Source: Nitrosopumilales archaeon
GTDB taxonomy: Archaea > Thermoproteota > Nitrososphaeria > Nitrososphaerales > Nitrosopumilaceae
DNA length: 32,000 nucleotides
Assembly (NCBI GenBank): GCA_007280335.1
Contig: QYQE01000046.1
Span: 1-32,000, forward strand
Direction: 5' to 3'
Part shown: positions 137 through 16,197 of the stretch, piece by piece
Layout of the letters: the number at the start of each line of letters is the position of its first letter
Numbering within the stretch: the stretch's first letter is position 1
Notes under the pieces: model-generated
Told to the model about the DNA's origin: nothing
The model's input: the letters and a program-made list of their open reading frames with translations, nothing else
Databases searched by the model: none
Translations under genes and position numbers: made by a program

Positions 137-1090
137 CTATTCTATCTGTGTCAAGTTAAGATCTAATTTTATACTACATTCTGGTTCATCCCAGTCCAAC
201 ATGTTATGTTTTGGGATGAATCCGAGCGGATCGTATTTGTCAAACCTTGTCTCTCCATCTATCGACGTCAACAAAACAACTTTAGAACTTTCACCTGCCA
301 TGACCGAAAGACTTACTCTAGTGCTATCGTCATTGAAAATGCCGCTGATTGTATTTACCATGGAATTTAGCGTTCCTACGGAAACCTTGTTTCCACCCAT
401 TATGTACAACATTGTACTTTTGACACTGTTGGGCGGTGCATCCTCGTAAAGCATCTTGATAGAGTCTCTTAGGGATGTCTGTATGTCTTGGCCTTCTTTA
501 CTTGTAGAAAGAATGTTTGTTCTTAGTGGGAAGGATGTAGACTTTAACGATGAAACGACTTCAAGTAGGGCTGCATTTGTTATGGTATGGCATGTATCAG
601 GAGTAAGATCCGGGTTGCTGTCAAGTAAAGCATCATTATCTACTATTATGGTGCAGTCAGAGTTTGCCTTCAATCTCTTCAAAGATACACCTGAAAAGAA
701 GATTCTATCTTTTTCGAATTTGAATGGCATTATAGCAAAAGAAAGGACGCTCTTACCCATCTCTTTTGCAACCTGCGAGAGAATGGGTGCTAATGCAGCT
801 CCAGATTTTCCTGCCAAGTTTGCCATTATGACAATAGTGGAATAACCATCAATCTTTTCTCTAATACTATCAAGGGCACCAAATGACATGCCTCGTATTA
901 GATACGAAGATGGATTAAGAATCGGACTGGTATTAATCAAAATTTTAGAATTGCCAGAATTGAGGTCTTTTGGGTCATGGCTAATTAGAATACATTCTGA
1001 ACCAAGTGTCTCTTTGGCGTTTATTGCTAATTTGCATCCTGCTCCGCCTAATCCTACAACTAGGATAGGCTCCTTTATCTCAAATTCCAT
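137..1090 (-). CDS. ftsZ: Divergent FtsZ/tubulin-superfamily protein (thaumarchaeal FtsZ-like) with a degenerate GTP-binding signature
   Basis: 317 aa. The N-terminal strand plus T1 loop 'ILVVGLGGAGCKLA' resembles FtsZ 'GvGGgGgNA'. 'TIIVDNDALL' resembles FtsZ 'viPNdkL'. Where FtsZ has GGGTGTG the ORF has 'ANLAGKSGAALAPIL', and where FtsZ has NxDFAD it appears to have 'ITNAALLEV'. Confidence 0.7.
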   Translation of the reverse strand: MEFEIKEPILVVGLGGAGCKLAINAKETLGSECILISHDPKDLNSGNSKILINTSPILNPSSYLIRGMSFGALDSIREKIDGYSTIVIMANLAGKSGAALAPILSQVAKEMGKSVLSFAIMPFKFEKDRIFFSGVSLKRLKANSDCTIIVDNDALLDSNPDLTPDTCHTITNAALLEVVSSLKSTSFPLRTNILSTSKEGQDIQTSLRDSIKMLYEDAPPNSVKSTMLYIMGGNKVSVGTLNSMVNTISGIFNDDSTRVSLSVMAGESSKVVLLTSIDGETRFDKYDPLGFIPKHNMLDWDEPECSIKLDLNLTQIE

Positions 1091-11277: not shown

Positions 11278-12837
11278 TTATTTTATGGTGACTGTCACAT
11301 ACTTTGATATTGTAACTTCATGATATCTTGCGCCAATTAGAACTTTGTATGTTCCTGTAAGTGCAAAATTATCTGCAGAAATATTTATTGAAATAGTCTT
11401 TGGCTGATTTGTCATGGTGACTTGATGATTACCAGAAACAATAATATCGTTAGTATTTGCAGTATTTGACGTAACTAAAGTAACAGGATCAACGATTTGT
11501 TCATTTGGGATTATTGTAAATGATATAGTTGAATTATCACCTCTGTGACTGATAATATCAGTTGGAGTTACACTTACATCCATTGCAAGTGATGCATTTG
11601 GATCAAGAACGCCAATGTTATTTTCAACCCACTCTGTAAACCACACTTTATCATCACTTGTTGTAAAATCAAGCACTTGAGCTACTCCACAATCATGCAT
11701 GTATCCACAGTCAGACCAGTTTGGATTTTTAGAAGGAACGAGATATTCTACAAGAGAACCTTTTACAGGATCAAAAACACCTATACTGTTTGCCACCTGT
11801 TCATTAAACCACATTCTGCCTTTGTCATCGATCTGACTCCAATATAGTCTTGAAATCGGTGTCTTGATCAATCCTGACGCATTACCATATGTAGACTCTG
11901 GAGGCATTGAAGTGATAAATTTTGTAAATTGTTGTGATTGTTGATCAAAACTAAAAAAGATACTACTTGCGGTATCGGTAATCCATATTTTACCATCTTT
12001 TTCTACTGATATTCCATTTGGAGCTAAAATTCCTAGAGGAAGAATAAATTGAGTTTTGTTGCCTGTTTGGGGATCGTATCTTACCAGATTTCCTCCTTGT
12101 TGATATGTCCAAACCGTATACCAGATTTTTCCATTAGAATCAACTGTCATATCGCTAGTAAAATTATAGTTTCCAGGAGAATGTATTGTTGAATAATCTA
12201 TGGTAGAACCAACCTGATCTACATTAAAAGATGTTATTTTTCTTCCTACAAAATCATTTATTAAAATTTCTTTACCGTTTATGACAATCATTTGAGGAAA
12301 TGATTCGCTTTGACCAGGTGTTGTTGGATAATTGAAATTAGCGTATTTTTTATCAGTAGGAGAGAATTTCCAAATTAGATTGTGTCCAGAATCTGTATAC
12401 CATATGTTTCCATCAGGTGCATGACCAATTCCCCACATCATTGATTTTTCATGTGATTGCCATAATGGATTTGCATATTCTGTAAAGTTTTTAGTGGAAG
12501 GATCAAACTTGGCAATATTTCCTGTATTTGATTCGGTAAACCAGACATTTCCATCGGAGTCTGTTGTTATGCCTAATGGCTGTGTACATGCAGTAGGGAT
12601 CTTGAATTCTGTTATGTATTTGTTAGATTTTGCATCACTAGTTTCACAAAATATTGGACGGTCTTTGTCTTTGTAATTGTCTGCAGGCGTGTGCGTTATT
12701 GTAGTATCAGTGGTTTGAGCTGTATTTTTTGGATTACCAAAACCGCCAAATAACGCCACGGTTGAACTTCCTACCATTATTGCTCCAAACGCGACAGCCA
12801 TTATAATCATTAGAATTTTTTTGTTTTTCTTCTTCAC
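11278..12837 (-). CDS. Exported/anchored beta-propeller repeat protein (streptogramin-lyase/Vgb-like repeats) with C-terminal Ig-like domain
   Basis: 519 aa. N-terminal 'KKKNKKILMIIMAVAFGAIMVGSS'. At least six blades are marked by 'GNVWFTE', 'GNIWYTD', 'GKIWYTV', 'GKIWITD', 'GRMWFNE' and 'DKVWFTE'. The last ~100 aa are beta-rich. Confidence 0.7.
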   Translation of the reverse strand: MKKKNKKILMIIMAVAFGAIMVGSSTVALFGGFGNPKNTAQTTDTTITHTPADNYKDKDRPIFCETSDAKSNKYITEFKIPTACTQPLGITTDSDGNVWFTESNTGNIAKFDPSTKNFTEYANPLWQSHEKSMMWGIGHAPDGNIWYTDSGHNLIWKFSPTDKKYANFNYPTTPGQSESFPQMIVINGKEILINDFVGRKITSFNVDQVGSTIDYSTIHSPGNYNFTSDMTVDSNGKIWYTVWTYQQGGNLVRYDPQTGNKTQFILPLGILAPNGISVEKDGKIWITDTASSIFFSFDQQSQQFTKFITSMPPESTYGNASGLIKTPISRLYWSQIDDKGRMWFNEQVANSIGVFDPVKGSLVEYLVPSKNPNWSDCGYMHDCGVAQVLDFTTSDDKVWFTEWVENNIGVLDPNASLAMDVSVTPTDIISHRGDNSTISFTIIPNEQIVDPVTLVTSNTANTNDIIVSGNHQVTMTNQPKTISINISADNFALTGTYKVLIGARYHEVTISKYVTVTIK

Positions 12838-12879: not shown

Positions 12880-13425
12880 TTACCTTTTCTTTATAGCGAG
12901 GGTTTTTTGTACCTCGTTCATACTACTGATGAATTTCTGCTTTGCTTCATATTCATCTGATACTTTGACGACAATTTCAGATGACGAAAACATGACATCC
13001 TTGACTAAGATTGGAGCGCTTAGTCCTAGCAGCTCGCTCAATATATCAAATATGTTGTTAAACTTGGTTCCGTTCTTGTACCTGAAGATTGTATTACCTT
13101 CGGATAATTTTGGGGGTAATTCTAACGGGATCACCAACTCTGAAGAAATAACCTCTGTAACAAAAGTATTGGTGTCATTTTTTATCATCTCACCTAATTT
13201 TTCTTTTTCAGACACAAGCTCATTTTTTATCTTTTCAAGTTCGCCTAATTCATCATGATATTGTTCTCCTACCATCTTTGCAAAGGTAGATTCGGTGACA
13301 CTCTTTAGTGGTACTTCGTGGATTCTAAAATTAACTCTGGCAAGCTCAGCTTCTACATTGGTTAATTGTTGTCTGTTGGATTTTATCCTCCCAGCTACCT
13401 CTTCAAGATACTGAAAATCAACCAT
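12880..13425 (-). CDS. Uncharacterised 181-aa protein tightly linked to the tubulin-like gene; N-terminal coiled-coil/helical hairpin, mixed C-terminal half
   Basis: ATG lies 10 bp downstream of the tubulin-like stop. Heptad-like charged helices 'LEEVAGRIKSNRQQLTNVEAELARVNFRI' and 'HDELGELEKIKNELVSEKEKLGEMIKN'. I recognised no family motif. Confidence 0.6.
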   Translation of the reverse strand: MVDFQYLEEVAGRIKSNRQQLTNVEAELARVNFRIHEVPLKSVTESTFAKMVGEQYHDELGELEKIKNELVSEKEKLGEMIKNDTNTFVTEVISSELVIPLELPPKLSEGNTIFRYKNGTKFNNIFDILSELLGLSAPILVKDVMFSSSEIVVKVSDEYEAKQKFISSMNEVQKTLAIKKR

Positions 13426-13435
13426 CTTTCAATAC

Positions 13436-14824
13436 CTAACTAAACTGATGAACTACGTCCATCAGACTCTGCTTGAATTCTTCTGTAGTCAAACCCCATC
13501 TGCCATATTCCTCCTTGTAAGCATCCCATGAGACTTCTGCTTCACTAGCAATTTCAAGTATTTTTGGTCCTATTGCCTTTGTGTTGACTAGAATTGTGAT
13601 GTTTGCCTGTTCACTTTCAAGTATTGGTATCTTGACAAAAATCATTCTAGAGTCTTCAATGTTAAATCTGTCTTTGATGATTGCCTTGAGAGCATCTCTT
13701 TCTTTTACATCAAATTCTCCGCTAACTTTGACTAGTGCACAACAAGAGTCCTTTGGACCGCCCTTGTCTCGAACATCATTTTCATCAATATCAAACAAAA
13801 GTGCATCTTCTTTTTTATGAATGTGCTCAACAATTCTTTCCATGGTGTTACTTTTTCCTTTTGACATTAGATCTGTGCTCCATATTTTTTCCTCAGATAT
13901 GATTGGGATGACCCATGGGATGGCAAATTTTGGACGTTTTGTTGCAAGCCATGTTCTATAGTTTGACATGTCCCACTCTGTTTCTCTTGCAAATGATGAA
14001 ACAAACATCGAAATGGCACTTGCTGCAATCAGATTCATACCGCGATAATCCTTCCAACCTATTTCTTGTTCTTTTGGAAGATCATCAATTATTGATGGAA
14101 TCTTGTCCAACTTTTTTTCAAATTTATGAGCTAACAGTCTTAGAGTTTTATTTGAAAAGATAATTGAACAATCACTATATTTTATCTGATATTCTAAATT
14201 CATTACGATGTTTATTGCAGCGGCTTCAAAAATTATAGGATCCCAGCCAAACTCTGGTAAAAGCCCCAATGTTGCAATGGTTGCATGTTCCTTAGTGTCT
14301 TTTTTTATGTATTGAATAAATGCACTTGCAAAAGAACTACCAGTTCCACCTCCCATTGCAAACGGTACACAGAATCCCCTTACTGGTTCTGGTGAAAGAG
14401 CTGCAATTTGTTTTTGCATATCGAATTTGGAGCTTACCTCTTTTATGAAACGCGTTCTGCCCTCTGCCCAATTTCTTGCTGCTCCACCTGAACCATGAAT
14501 GACATGTTTGTCCCTTAAAGCAAAAAGATCAGGATATGATTGTAAAATGAGATTGGCAGCTCTTGGATCCAAGTCGATTAGTAATGCTCTTGGGATAAGT
14601 GGTATCTCACCACTTCCATATGATGGTGGAAATCTTAGAATGGTACTGCCATACCTTTTGAGTACTCTTGATTCTTCTTTTTCGCCTTTAAGTGTAGGTT
14701 TGAGCGGGTTTGCCCCCACATCAAGCAGTAATCTTCTGTATGCCTCTGCACCTAATCCTATGCCACAATGACCAAAACATGTCATTAGCACCGGGGCTGG
14801 TGGTAGTGGATCAAACTTGGACAA
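13436..14824 (-). CDS. Tubulin-like GTPase (artubulin-type archaeal tubulin homologue)
   Basis: 462 aa with a TTG start preceded by SD-like GGTGA. Tubulin-style motifs occur in order: 'CFGHCGIGLG' (GQCGNQIG), 'IPRALLIDLDP' (VPRAxLVDLEP), 'HGSGGAARNWAEG' (GxSGAGNNWAKG), 'AMGGGTGSS' (GGGTGSG) and 'YRGMNLIAASAISMFVSSFAR' ([21 protein letters not shown]). Confidence 0.85.
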   Translation of the reverse strand: MSKFDPLPPAPVLMTCFGHCGIGLGAEAYRRLLLDVGANPLKPTLKGEKEESRVLKRYGSTILRFPPSYGSGEIPLIPRALLIDLDPRAANLILQSYPDLFALRDKHVIHGSGGAARNWAEGRTRFIKEVSSKFDMQKQIAALSPEPVRGFCVPFAMGGGTGSSFASAFIQYIKKDTKEHATIATLGLLPEFGWDPIIFEAAAINIVMNLEYQIKYSDCSIIFSNKTLRLLAHKFEKKLDKIPSIIDDLPKEQEIGWKDYRGMNLIAASAISMFVSSFARETEWDMSNYRTWLATKRPKFAIPWVIPIISEEKIWSTDLMSKGKSNTMERIVEHIHKKEDALLFDIDENDVRDKGGPKDSCCALVKVSGEFDVKERDALKAIIKDRFNIEDSRMIFVKIPILESEQANITILVNTKAIGPKILEIASEAEVSWDAYKEEYGRWGLTTEEFKQSLMDVVHQFS

Positions 14825-15006: not shown

Positions 15007-15375
15007 TTAGGTTTCTTTTAGTACTTTCTTTAACTCTTGGAATTCTTCAATGGTGATCTCTCCAGCGGCAAGTCGATTTTTTAGAATTTTAATAGCACTG
15101 CTTCCTTTTGATTGAACTTTTTCTGATTTTTTACTTGTTTCTGATTTTTTATTTTGTCCTTTGGTGTTTTTTGATTTGATTTCTTTTTCAGACTTGGTTT
15201 GTTCTTGTTCCTCTAGAGTTTTAATTAGACTTTCTACATATTTGTAATCTGACAAGTATAGGGGTGTTCCATGTTTTAGTACATTGAAAATCTCATGTAG
15301 TCTATTACTGTCTCCTTTCCCAGAATCAATTAGTTTTTGAACTGTTTTTATTAAATTATCAGACAATTTTTTCAC
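15007..15375 (-). CDS. Small protein: conserved N-terminal 'LIDxGxGDxxRLH' domain, K/E/S-rich linker, C-terminal SHOCT-like helix
   Basis: 122 aa. The GTG start directly abuts the TPR gene stop. C-terminal 'LKNRLAAGEITIEEFQELKKVL' fits the SHOCT pattern. The N-terminus is paralogous to that of ORF 23134..23913. Confidence 0.6.
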   Translation of the reverse strand: MKKLSDNLIKTVQKLIDSGKGDSNRLHEIFNVLKHGTPLYLSDYKYVESLIKTLEEQEQTKSEKEIKSKNTKGQNKKSETSKKSEKVQSKGSSAIKILKNRLAAGEITIEEFQELKKVLKET

Positions 15376-16197
15376 CTATTTTACCAGTGTCCTAAATCGC
15401 AAGTCATCTTTTATACTCTTAAATGATTTGTCCTTTATTGCCCATTTTTTAATAGTTTTACCATAATATGATATAGCTTCTGCAAGTAGGATCAATGAAT
15501 CATTAATTTCACCAATCTCTGCCTTGCTGCGGGATTTGGCATATATCACATTGCCATTTTTTGGATGTTCTTTTAAGACTAGATCAAACGCTGAAATGGC
15601 ATCTAAATGCCTGCCAAGCTCGGCTAGTTCGGTTCCTCTGTAAAATGATACCTCATTATGTTGAGGATCTATCTTGAGTACACTATCAAAACAGGCAAGT
15701 GCTCCCTCATGTTTTTTCTGTTTACCAAGCACCAATCCTTTGTAAAACAACGCATCGATGTTTTGTGGTTCTAATTCCAGACAATGATCAAGACAAGATA
15801 TTGCTTCTTCGTATAGACCAAGTTTATTTTTTGCAATTGCTTTATTGTAAAAGGATGCAGCGTAATCTGGTTTGATTTTCAATGCTTTGTCATATGATGC
15901 TATGGCCTGTTCATAATGATCTAGTTCTGCAAGTGCATTTCCTATGTTGTTAAGAGCGGCAACATGTTTTGGATCTACTTCTAAAATTTTTTCAAAGCAT
16001 GATATTGCATCCCTGTTTTTATCAAGATTAGTCAGTGCAAGTCCCTTGTGGTACAAGGCATCGACATTTTGAGGATCTGTTTTTAGAACCTTGTCAAAAA
16101 ATGAAATCGCATCCTTGTGTTTGCTAAGCTTGGCAAGTGAGATTCCTTCAGAAATTAACACGTCAATGCCCTTTGCCGGTTCAAAAAACTTCATCAA
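15376..16197 (-). CDS. Tetratricopeptide (TPR) repeat protein (start probably ATG at 16194)
   Basis: 273 aa with about 7 tandem 34-aa units, each with the 'A...Y.kAL..dP....A....G.al' pattern (e.g. 'DAISFFDKVLKTDPQNVDALYHKGLAL'). Confidence 0.85.
   Translation of the reverse strand: MMKFFEPAKGIDVLISEGISLAKLSKHKDAISFFDKVLKTDPQNVDALYHKGLALTNLDKNRDAISCFEKILEVDPKHVAALNNIGNALAELDHYEQAIASYDKALKIKPDYAASFYNKAIAKNKLGLYEEAISCLDHCLELEPQNIDALFYKGLVLGKQKKHEGALACFDSVLKIDPQHNEVSFYRGTELAELGRHLDAISAFDLVLKEHPKNGNVIYAKSRSKAEIGEINDSLILLAEAISYYGKTIKKWAIKDKSFKSIKDDLRFRTLVK

What the first reader, a model, noticed from the sequence alone, without database searches (positions are those of the whole stretch)
12880..13425. 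Uncharacterised 181-aa coiled-coil protein apparently translationally coupled to the tubulin-like gene
The ATG lies 10 bp after the tubulin-like stop codon. The N-terminal ~85 residues form two heptad-like charged helices ('LEEVAGRIKSNRQQLTNVEAELARVNFRI' and 'HDELGELEKIKNELVSEKEKLGEMIKN'). The C-terminal half ('TFVTEVISSELVIPLELPPKLSEGNTIFRYKNGTKF...ILVKDVMFSSSEIVVKVSDEYEAKQKF') looks mixed beta/alpha. I recognise no family. Dedicated partners of prokaryotic tubulin-superfamily filaments are usually encoded adjacently, for example TubR/TubY with TubZ, BtubC with BtubA/B, and ZapA/SepF-type modulators with FtsZ. My uncertain recollection is that the original comparative-genomics description of artubulins noted a neighbouring Snf7/ESCRT-III-like gene. 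A helical-hairpin N-terminus would be compatible with that, but I cannot establish it by eye.
Basis: partly seen in the sequence, partly recalled or inferred. Interest (0 to 1): 0.65.

Follow-up and report, generated by a model that had tools for sequence, protein, structure and literature searches.

The report
Conserved unknown partner gene of archaeal artubulin

Summary
A 181-aa ORF (12880-13425, minus strand) starts 10 nt after the stop of a 462-aa Tubulin-family (artubulin) gene. AlphaFold2 gives a confident model: a helical hairpin followed by a small alpha/beta domain.

The gene is real (about 290 homologs, median dN/dS 0.07). Linkage to artubulin is near-absolute in both directions. Of 67 genome loci found through the partner that have enough upstream DNA, 66 have artubulin directly upstream. 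All 76 metagenome loci found through artubulin that have room carry the partner downstream. The spacing is -4 to +17 nt (mode 2), with one -22 outlier. The pair keeps together in at least seven unrelated neighbourhoods and down to 27-34% partner identity.

The Snf7 idea is refuted. No Snf7 profile matches, hhalign probability is 1.3%, and the C-terminal half contains beta strands. The genuine Snf7 of Nitrosarchaeum is a different gene, upstream of artubulin, present in only 6 of 126 loci.

No Pfam, NCBIfam, PHROGs, PDB-sequence or Foldseek match is significant. Very distant relatives (Bathyarchaeota, winged-helix fusions, short forms) occur without a tubulin next to them.

Best reading: a dedicated, co-expressed artubulin-binding accessory protein. 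Binding itself is inferred, not shown.

The parts
12880..13425 (-). Partner gene, 181 aa (20.6 kDa, pI 5.3): the finding itself. Second gene of the two-gene artubulin cassette.
   Evidence: ORF and translation. 292 homologs. dN/dS 0.07. No known family.
13150..13416 (-). Residues 4-92: antiparallel helical hairpin (helices 4-37 and 59-92) with a short helix and loop at the tip. The arms are the least conserved part (mean column identity 0.55-0.64).
   Evidence: AlphaFold2 model, pLDDT above 90 in both arms. Per-region conservation.
13252..13314 (-). Residues 38-58: hairpin tip motif PLKSxTESTFAKMIGxxYxD. E45, F48, G53 and D58 are invariant in 131 of 131 paired copies. It has the lowest model confidence (64-79), as expected for a segment that orders on binding. 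Candidate contact site.
   Evidence: An E-x-x-F-A-x-x-x-G core persists in distant members.
12883..13152 (-). Residues 92-181: compact alpha/beta domain (beta-beta-alpha-beta-beta-beta-alpha) with the signature LSELLGLSxPxxVKDV and a conserved C-terminal helix ending IKKR. No fold relative was found.
   Evidence: Domain-only model, pLDDT 88.8. Foldseek against PDB: best E=0.048, TM at most 0.40. Conservation 0.74-0.80. G134 and P138 invariant.
13426..13435 (-). 10-nt spacer between the artubulin stop (TAG) and the partner ATG. No room for a promoter. The homologous spacer is -4 to +17 nt in about 140 loci, mode 2 nt (TAGAAATG), with one -22 outlier that is probably a start misassigned by the script.
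13436..14824 (-). Artubulin gene, 462 aa, Tubulin/FtsZ GTPase domain: first gene of the cassette and the presumed binding target.
   Evidence: PF00091 at E=1.8e-15. Best PDB relatives are Asgard, gamma- and alpha-tubulins. hhalign against alpha-tubulin gives probability 97% over 382 columns.

Best explanation
The gene encodes the dedicated accessory protein of artubulin. The two genes form a bicistronic cassette that is transcribed together and probably translated in a coupled, near-stoichiometric way. The protein has two conserved ends separated by a variable stalk, an antiparallel coiled-coil hairpin whose length I estimate at about 5 nm. One end is the invariant loop at the hairpin tip (E45, F48, G53, D58). 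The other is a small alpha/beta head carrying the LSELLGLSxP..KDV motif. I propose that one conserved end binds artubulin, as a subunit or as a filament. The other end would then self-associate or bind a second cellular target. On this view the protein acts as a filament-bound modulator or adaptor (stabilising, bundling or anchoring). That is the role BtubC plays for BtubA/B, TubR/TubY for TubZ, and ZapA/SepF for FtsZ, although the fold is unrelated to any of them. Shown here: gene reality, purifying selection, obligate genomic linkage, co-inheritance, the architecture, and the absence of any known family or fold. Inferred: physical binding, which end binds what, and the effect on filaments.
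For: Linkage found through the partner: 71 genome loci. 66 have artubulin directly upstream on the same strand, 4 are cut by the contig end, and 1 is an orphan. Linkage found through artubulin: 80 metagenome loci. 76 have the partner directly downstream, 4 have fewer than 65 bp of room, and none lacks it with room available. Spacing is -4 to +17 nt, mode 2 nt, plus one -22 outlier. The pair stays together in at least seven unrelated neighbourhoods: the window type, L072/73, Nitrosotenuis L074/75, L076/77, L078/79, Nitrosarchaeum L160 and Nitrosomirales L166. It also holds at low partner identity: 55, 51, 34 and 30%, and 27% in L083, where an artubulin C-terminus lies 57 bp upstream. Pairwise divergences of the two proteins correlate at r=0.94. 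The partner evolves about twice as fast, and both are under strong purifying selection (dN/dS 0.07 and 0.05). Conservation concentrates at the tip and in the head, not in the arms. The one orphan (L044) is from a lineage whose artubulin is followed 10 nt later by a paired copy (HMM E=1.5e-86).
Against: Distant relatives at 20-26% identity exist with no tubulin adjacent: Bathyarchaeota BA1, tandem winged-helix-fused paralogs and 135-aa short forms. So the fold is not intrinsically tubulin-specific. No membrane-targeting, DNA-binding or enzymatic feature was found that would say what the second end does. Operon linkage can also reflect a shared pathway without direct contact.
Confidence: 0.6

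Rival explanations
1. It is a divergent ESCRT-III/Snf7 (CdvB-like) protein that couples artubulin to the Cdv division machinery.
For: It has an N-terminal helical hairpin. The original artubulin paper reported an adjacent Snf7 gene in Nitrosoarchaeum (PMC3349469).
Against: No Snf7 Pfam hit at E<=1 for the protein or for any of 20 diverse members. The family profile finds no ESCRT-III chain in the PDB at E<=10. hhalign against a genuine thaumarchaeal Snf7 gives 1.3% probability. The C-terminal 90 residues form a beta-containing domain. No ESCRT-III appears among the top Foldseek hits. The real Snf7 is a separate 207-aa gene upstream of artubulin. It is present in only 6 of 126 loci and absent in Nitrosotenuis (PMC3835317).
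Confidence: 0.02
2. It is an assembly cofactor or chaperone for artubulin, functionally like tubulin cofactor A or prefoldin. It would hold the newly made monomer through its coiled-coil arm, rather than being a component of the mature filament.
For: The tight spacing suits equimolar co-translation. Sub-threshold Prefoldin_2 hits occur in 3 of 20 family members, best E=0.0022, and in the L082 paralog. Human cofactor A (1h7c) appears among the hairpin matches with TM 0.60 normalised to the target.
Against: All these matches are below threshold and typical of any coiled-coil hairpin (1h7c E=0.95; Prefoldin_2 scores below the 27.6-bit cutoff). Prefoldin places a beta hairpin between its two helices, whereas this protein has a helical loop there and a separate alpha/beta head. 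From general knowledge, bacterial BtubA/B fold without dedicated cofactors.
Confidence: 0.15
3. It is the cargo adaptor of a tubulin-based segregation module, like TubR/TubY with TubZ, inherited from a mobile element. It would link artubulin filaments to DNA or another cargo.
For: The cassette sits in at least seven different chromosomal contexts, which suggests mobility. A transposase fragment lies near it in L072. Distant family members carry C-terminal winged-helix-like extensions (TFIIE_alpha 8e-4, Z-alpha 2e-3) and sit beside DUF4145. An orphan, probably transferred, copy exists in L044.
Against: The artubulin-linked subfamily has no DNA-binding domain. No PHROGs match for the partner or for artubulin. 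The flanking genes are ordinary housekeeping genes such as TruD, UvrAB and ribosomal protein L16, with no integrase or replication genes. No centromere-like repeat array was looked for.
Confidence: 0.1
4. The adjacency reflects only co-regulation or chance synteny. The protein has a function unrelated to artubulin.
For: Distant relatives occur without a tubulin. No interaction has been demonstrated.
Against: 0 of 76 artubulin loci with room lack it, and 66 of 67 partner loci have artubulin. Every other neighbouring gene changes between the seven contexts while this pair, its order, its strand and its 2-17 nt spacing persist. By contrast the TPR/SHOCT and Snf7 neighbours are clade-specific.
Confidence: 0.08

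Closest known systems
BtubC (Bklc), the third gene of the Prosthecobacter btubAB operon
   Same: A small non-tubulin protein encoded immediately downstream of prokaryotic tubulin genes and co-inherited with them. From general knowledge it binds BtubA/B stoichiometrically and stabilises the mini-microtubules. That is the same genomic logic as here.
   Different: BtubC is an all-helical TPR protein. This partner is a coiled-coil hairpin plus an alpha/beta head with no TPR signal. The TPR protein in this window (15376-16197) lies two genes upstream and is linked in only one of the seven neighbourhoods.
TubR and TubY, partners of plasmid and phage TubZ
   Same: Operon-encoded accessory proteins of a tubulin-superfamily filament. 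TubY combines a DNA-binding domain with a coiled coil. Distant members of the present family also combine the coiled-coil core with a winged-helix-like domain.
   Different: The artubulin-linked subfamily lacks any HTH. No sequence or fold similarity was detected. No mobile-element hallmarks are present.
FtsZ modulators ZapA and SepF
   Same: Small soluble proteins that bind filaments of the same superfamily and bundle or anchor them. ZapA likewise has a globular head plus a coiled coil.
   Different: No significant match to either in Pfam, in PDB sequences or among the listed Foldseek hits. The domain order is reversed relative to ZapA. They are not usually encoded 2-17 nt downstream of ftsZ.
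ESCRT-III / Snf7 (CdvB)
   Same: An N-terminal helical hairpin of similar length. A true Snf7 gene neighbours artubulin in Nitrosarchaeum.
   Different: The Snf7 is a separate gene. No profile similarity (1.3% hhalign probability), and a beta-containing C-terminal domain in place of helices alpha3 to alpha5.
Tubulin cofactor A, prefoldin beta and stathmin (helical tubulin binders)
   Same: Elongated helical or coiled-coil elements that contact tubulin. There are weak hairpin-level overlaps.
   Different: None is statistically supported. None has the alpha/beta head. These are eukaryotic or general chaperone systems and are not operon partners.

Membership tests
ESCRT-III / Snf7 (Pfam PF03357) | Significant match to the Snf7 profile | tested here: not met
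   No hit at E<=1 for the protein or for any of 20 diverse family members. As a positive control, the Nitrosarchaeum upstream gene scores 36 bits at E=6.9e-9.
ESCRT-III / Snf7 (Pfam PF03357) | All-helical core: an alpha1-alpha2 hairpin followed by helices alpha3 to alpha5 | tested here: not met
   A hairpin is present, but residues 93-157 form five short beta strands and one helix.
ESCRT-III / Snf7 (Pfam PF03357) | Profile-profile or structural similarity to a bona fide member | tested here: not met
   hhalign of A1 against the L160 Snf7 gives probability 1.3%. The partner HMM gives no hit on it at E<=10. No ESCRT-III chain in a PDB profile search at E<=10 or in the top 50 Foldseek hits.
Operon-encoded accessory proteins of prokaryotic tubulin-superfamily filaments (a functional class: TubR/TubY, BtubC) | Encoded adjacent to, co-oriented with and co-inherited with the tubulin-family gene across genomes | tested here: met
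   66 of 67 and 76 of 76 loci. Spacing -4 to +17 nt apart from one -22 outlier. Seven neighbourhoods.
Operon-encoded accessory proteins of prokaryotic tubulin-superfamily filaments (a functional class: TubR/TubY, BtubC) | Direct physical binding to the tubulin-like protein or its filament | not testable with these tools
This needs AlphaFold-Multimer or biochemistry.
Prefoldin (PF01920 / PF02996) | Profile match above threshold, and a coiled coil with beta hairpin(s) between the two helices | tested here: not met
   Prefoldin_2 appears in only 3 of 20 members, best E=0.0022, below the 27.6-bit cutoff. The tip is a short helix and loop, not a beta hairpin.
BtubC / TPR proteins | Tetratricopeptide repeats | tested here: not met
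   No TPR family hit. The model is not a TPR solenoid.
SepF / ZapA | Match to the family profile or fold | tested here: not met
   No Pfam or NCBIfam hit. Neither appears among the PDB sequence hits at E<=10 or the listed Foldseek hits for the whole protein or the head domain.

The most novel reading that the evidence does not exclude
Artubulin may not be a self-sufficient cytomotive filament but an obligate two-protein system. In all 131 artubulins examined, the position of alpha-tubulin's catalytic Glu254 (T7/H8) is Asn288, while Asp251 is kept as Asp285. The partner presents invariant acidic and aromatic residues (E45, F48, D58) on the tip of a rigid hairpin. The most novel reading not excluded is that the partner supplies in trans a function the tubulin has lost. 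It could complete or gate the GTPase site at the longitudinal interface, or cap and template filament ends. That would be a new kind of tubulin regulator with a new fold, in the prokaryotic tubulin that several phylogenies place nearest to eukaryotic and Asgard tubulins.
Probability: 0.07. Interest if true: 0.9.

Novelty: new variant of a known kind. Interest (0 to 1): 0.62.

Why it matters
Artubulin has been cited since 2012 in the debate on the archaeal origin of tubulin. The papers I could search report no biochemistry or cell biology for it, and one (2014) explicitly calls for structural analysis and polymerisation assays. The only partner discussed so far, Snf7, turns out to be a clade-specific neighbour (6 of 126 loci). 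This protein is the universal neighbour. That changes the experiment to do: co-express artubulin with its 181-aa partner. It also gives a concrete handle, in the form of two conserved surfaces to mutate, for finding out what artubulin filaments do in ammonia-oxidising archaea. In addition it adds a family with no detectable fold relative to the small list of accessory proteins of prokaryotic tubulins.

Tried and rejected
1. Known-family assignment. Pfam, NCBIfam, PHROGs, and PDB searches by sequence and by profile gave only sub-threshold coiled-coil noise (KIF21A_4th E=0.21, WXG100 E=0.1, C-type lectin neck repeats E=0.009, MmoB E=0.11). The MmoB lead was not echoed by Foldseek on either model and was dropped.

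2. Fold assignment. Foldseek of the full model against PDB and BFVD, and of the head domain against PDB, gave nothing with E<0.04. TM-scores normalised to the query were at most 0.42.

3. Snf7 identity: rejected.

4. The idea that this window is the Nitrosoarchaeum neighbourhood of Yutin and Koonin: rejected. The window has an M1 peptidase, a Na+/H+ exchanger, SOD and PAC2, not TBP, a deaminase or a polymerase. The real equivalent is L160.

5. Complex prediction.

6. A third cassette component. The SHOCT and TPR genes upstream are confined to one neighbourhood type and were rejected as parts. The shared 50-residue N-terminus between the SHOCT protein and the divergent Zn-ribbon gene of L072 (E=0.002) was not followed up.

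7. Two exhaustive-search hits were discarded as spurious: P0264 (a low-complexity repeat) and P0273 (a eukaryotic link-domain proteoglycan).

8. Phage or defence origin. PHROGs was negative. PADLOC was not run.

Full report
**1. The observation**

The window has an ATG-initiated ORF of 181 codons at 12880-13425 on the minus strand. Immediately upstream on the same strand lies a 462-codon ORF (13436-14824). Its product matches Pfam Tubulin/FtsZ PF00091 (E=1.8e-15). By profile search its closest solved relatives are Asgard, gamma- and alpha-tubulins, so it is an 'artubulin'. The artubulin stop codon (13436-13438) and the partner ATG (13425-13423) are separated by exactly 10 nt.

An AlphaFold2 model built on 31 homologs is confident (mean pLDDT 87.3, pTM 0.73). 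It shows helices 4-37 and 59-92 joined by a short helix and loop, then a beta-beta-alpha-beta-beta-beta-alpha unit.

**2. It is a real, constrained gene**

The word-indexed search found 292 homologs (E<=1e-3), nearly all 181-183 aa and all from Thaumarchaeota (Nitrosotalea, Nitrosopumilaceae, 'Nitrososphaerales archaeon'), with no Pfam annotation. The alignment has no internal indels. It carries invariant motifs at the hairpin tip (E45, F48, G53, D58) and in the C-terminal domain (LSELLGLSxP..KDV). Median pairwise dN/dS is 0.07, against 0.05 for artubulin.

**3. Linkage to artubulin, tested in both directions**

*Starting from the partner.* A scan of one genome per GTDB species returned 71 loci. 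By tblastn, 66 have an artubulin gene directly upstream on the same strand. Four are cut by the contig end. One (L044, a Nitrosomirales MAG) has no artubulin nearby.

*Starting from artubulin.* A scan of metagenome contigs with an artubulin alignment returned 80 loci. Of these, 76 have the partner directly downstream. The other four have fewer than 65 bp of downstream DNA. None lacks the partner when there is room.

*Spacing.* Across about 140 loci the distance from the artubulin stop to the partner start is -4 to +17 nt, most often 2 nt (TAGAAATG). One -22 value is probably a start misassigned by my script.

*Different surroundings.* The pair persists while everything around it changes. I found seven distinct neighbourhoods:
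- The window type: TPR, SHOCT, artubulin, partner, NHL propeller, TruD.
- L072/73: a Zn-ribbon gene and an ion channel.
- Nitrosotenuis (L074/75): UvrAB, a PNPOx gene and an exosortase.
- L076/77: a VWA gene.
- L078/79: an ABC transporter and a pyridine-nucleotide oxidoreductase.
- Nitrosarchaeum (L160): dCMP deaminase, Snf7 and an MFS transporter.
- Nitrosomirales (L166): an MG2-domain gene and an amino-acid kinase.

*Low identity.* The linkage also holds when the partner has diverged to 55, 51, 34 and 30% identity. It holds at 27% in L083, where the C-terminus of an artubulin ends 57 bp upstream.

*Co-inheritance.* The divergences of the two proteins are correlated (r=0.94), with the partner changing about twice as fast.

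*The single exception dissolves.* The Nitrosomirales artubulin (P0414) is followed 10 nt later by a 187-aa partner (HMM E=1.5e-86). Its longest contig has the same length (142,036 bp) as the contig that carries L044. So L044 is most likely an extra copy in a genome that also has the canonical pair. That copy is 62% identical to the paired one and lacks an ATG at the conserved start.

**4. What it is not**

That report exists (PMC3349469). Later papers say the 'potential Snf7' is upstream of artubulin in N. koreensis (PMC9871819) and is absent near the Nitrosotenuis artubulin (PMC3835317).

I recovered a Nitrosarchaeum locus (L160; identified through cluster names). Its gene order is dCMP deaminase, a 207-aa gene, artubulin, the 181-aa partner, and an MFS transporter. 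This matches the published neighbourhood. The 207-aa gene is a genuine Snf7 (PF03357, 36 bits, above the 27.3-bit cutoff). The partner, 53% identical to the window's, lies on the other side of artubulin.

The partner HMM does not detect this Snf7, and hhalign gives 1.3% probability. No Snf7 hit appears in any of 20 diverse family members. The C-terminal half contains beta strands. Snf7 lies upstream of artubulin in only 6 of 126 loci with enough upstream DNA. The partner may be the item listed as 'conserved hypothetical protein' in the legend of their Fig. 2B. I could not check this because figures are not held.

*No other known family fits.* Pfam, NCBIfam, PHROGs, and PDB sequence and profile searches give only sub-threshold coiled-coil noise. 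Foldseek finds nothing below E=0.04 with the full model against PDB (best E=0.075) or the viral BFVD library (best E=0.13), or with a separately modelled head domain (pLDDT 88.8; best E=0.048, TM at most 0.40). The overlaps with tubulin cofactor A (E=0.95) and Prefoldin_2 (3 of 20 members, below threshold) are what any helical hairpin would give.

**5. The wider family**

An exhaustive HMM search of 1.84 billion representative proteins found only 43 hits. Besides the artubulin-linked forms there are four other kinds:
- High-GC versions of about 190 aa. The one whose context I could retrieve (P0255, in L083) is also artubulin-linked.
- Proteins of 230-240 aa, one of them (P0280) from Bathyarchaeota BA1, with no tubulin within 5 kb.
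- Proteins of about 300 aa whose C-terminal extension resembles a winged helix (TFIIE_alpha 8e-4, Z-alpha 2e-3). In L082 these occur as two tandem paralogs beside a DUF4145 gene.
- Forms of about 135 aa that lack the first helix and the tip.

So the coiled-coil-plus-head module is older than its association with artubulin and has been combined with other partners. The clade to which the window's protein belongs is strictly tubulin-linked.

**6. How it most likely works**

*Shown.* The two genes form a unit with no room for an internal promoter. The unit is inherited and probably transferred as a block, and both genes are under strong constraint. The partner's conservation is concentrated at two ends (tip 0.78; head 0.74-0.80) that are separated by more variable arms (0.55-0.64).

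*Inferred.* The protein is made together with artubulin in similar amounts and binds it through one conserved end. The tip is the better candidate because it is invariant yet modelled with the lowest confidence, as expected for a segment that orders on binding. The other end would dimerise or bind a second target, giving a filament modulator or adaptor.

I put 0.6 on 'dedicated physical partner of artubulin'. The alternatives are an assembly cofactor (0.15), a TubR-like cargo adaptor (0.10), linkage without direct contact (0.08) and ESCRT-III (0.02).

**7. A side observation that bears on mechanism**

hhalign of the artubulin alignment against human alpha-tubulin gives 97% probability over 382 columns. 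The alignment pairs the invariant artubulin segment ETEWDMSNYRTWL (281-293) with ALNVDLTEFQTNL (247-259).

The position of the catalytic Glu254 is Asn288 in 131 of 131 artubulins, and Asp251 is retained as Asp285. From established knowledge of tubulin and FtsZ, this residue activates hydrolysis of the GTP bound to the neighbouring subunit. Beta-tubulin has Lys at this position, which is why the GTP bound to alpha-tubulin at the intradimer interface is not hydrolysed.

This raises the speculative possibility that artubulin needs help in trans. That possibility is the basis of the 'novel case' (probability 0.07).

**8. Novelty and verdict**

A dedicated partner of a prokaryotic tubulin is a known kind of thing (BtubC, TubR/TubY). 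This family is unrelated to those and has no detectable fold relative. I found no description of it in the 14 papers that mention artubulin. The finding is real and its central interpretation is well supported genomically. Its Snf7 suggestion is wrong, and the biochemical mechanism remains to be tested.

Noticed in passing
window 137-1090 (-): A second Tubulin/FtsZ-family gene (317 aa, PF00091 E=2.3e-18, matching only profile positions 96-188) lies about 12 kb from artubulin. It is presumably the divergent thaumarchaeal FtsZ-like protein.
   Followed up: no
window 13946-13984 (-), artubulin residues 281-293: The invariant artubulin segment ETEWDMSNYRTWL aligns with the alpha-tubulin T7/H8 segment ALNVDLTEFQTNL.
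   Followed up: partly
window 15007-15375 (-) and 15376-16197 (-): A 122-aa protein (N-terminal domain, K/E/S-rich linker, SHOCT domain) and a 273-aa TPR protein lie upstream of artubulin on the same strand. They are conserved only in the Nitrosotalea-type neighbourhood. The first 50 residues of the SHOCT protein weakly match (36% identity, E=0.002) the divergently oriented Zn-ribbon gene upstream of artubulin in L072/L073.
   Followed up: partly
L160 2147-2770 (+): A genuine Snf7/ESCRT-III gene (PF03357, 36 bits) sits directly upstream of artubulin in Nitrosarchaeum-type loci only: 6 of 126 loci (L157-L160, L162, L163). This is the 'Snf7 neighbour' of the literature.
   Followed up: yes
L044 6001-6543; L015 6001-6543; L064 6001-6544: L044 is an orphan partner copy in a Nitrosomirales MAG, with no artubulin adjacent and no ATG at the conserved start. 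L015 has an in-frame stop and L064 a frameshift. These may be decaying copies or assembly errors.
   Followed up: partly
L082 1015-1962 and 1946-2872 (+): Two overlapping tandem paralogs (315 and 308 aa) of the wider family sit next to a DUF4145 gene on a 3.3-kb contig. The 308-aa one (P0267) is an HMM hit to the family, and its relatives P0256 and P0275 gave the weak winged-helix Pfam matches. The 315-aa one was judged a paralog by eye from its sequence. No tubulin is present on the contig.
   Followed up: partly
L166 2163-2705 and 2705-3934 (+): In Nitrosomirales the artubulin-partner pair is preceded on the same strand by a 180-aa protein with weak winged-helix matches and a 409-aa coiled-coil/MG2-domain protein, which may extend the operon in that lineage.
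   Followed up: no
window 11278-12837 (-): A 519-aa secreted NHL/SGL beta-propeller protein (Vgb_lyase family, E=2.3e-26) starts 42 nt after the partner's stop. It is syntenic in many loci but not in all.
   Followed up: no
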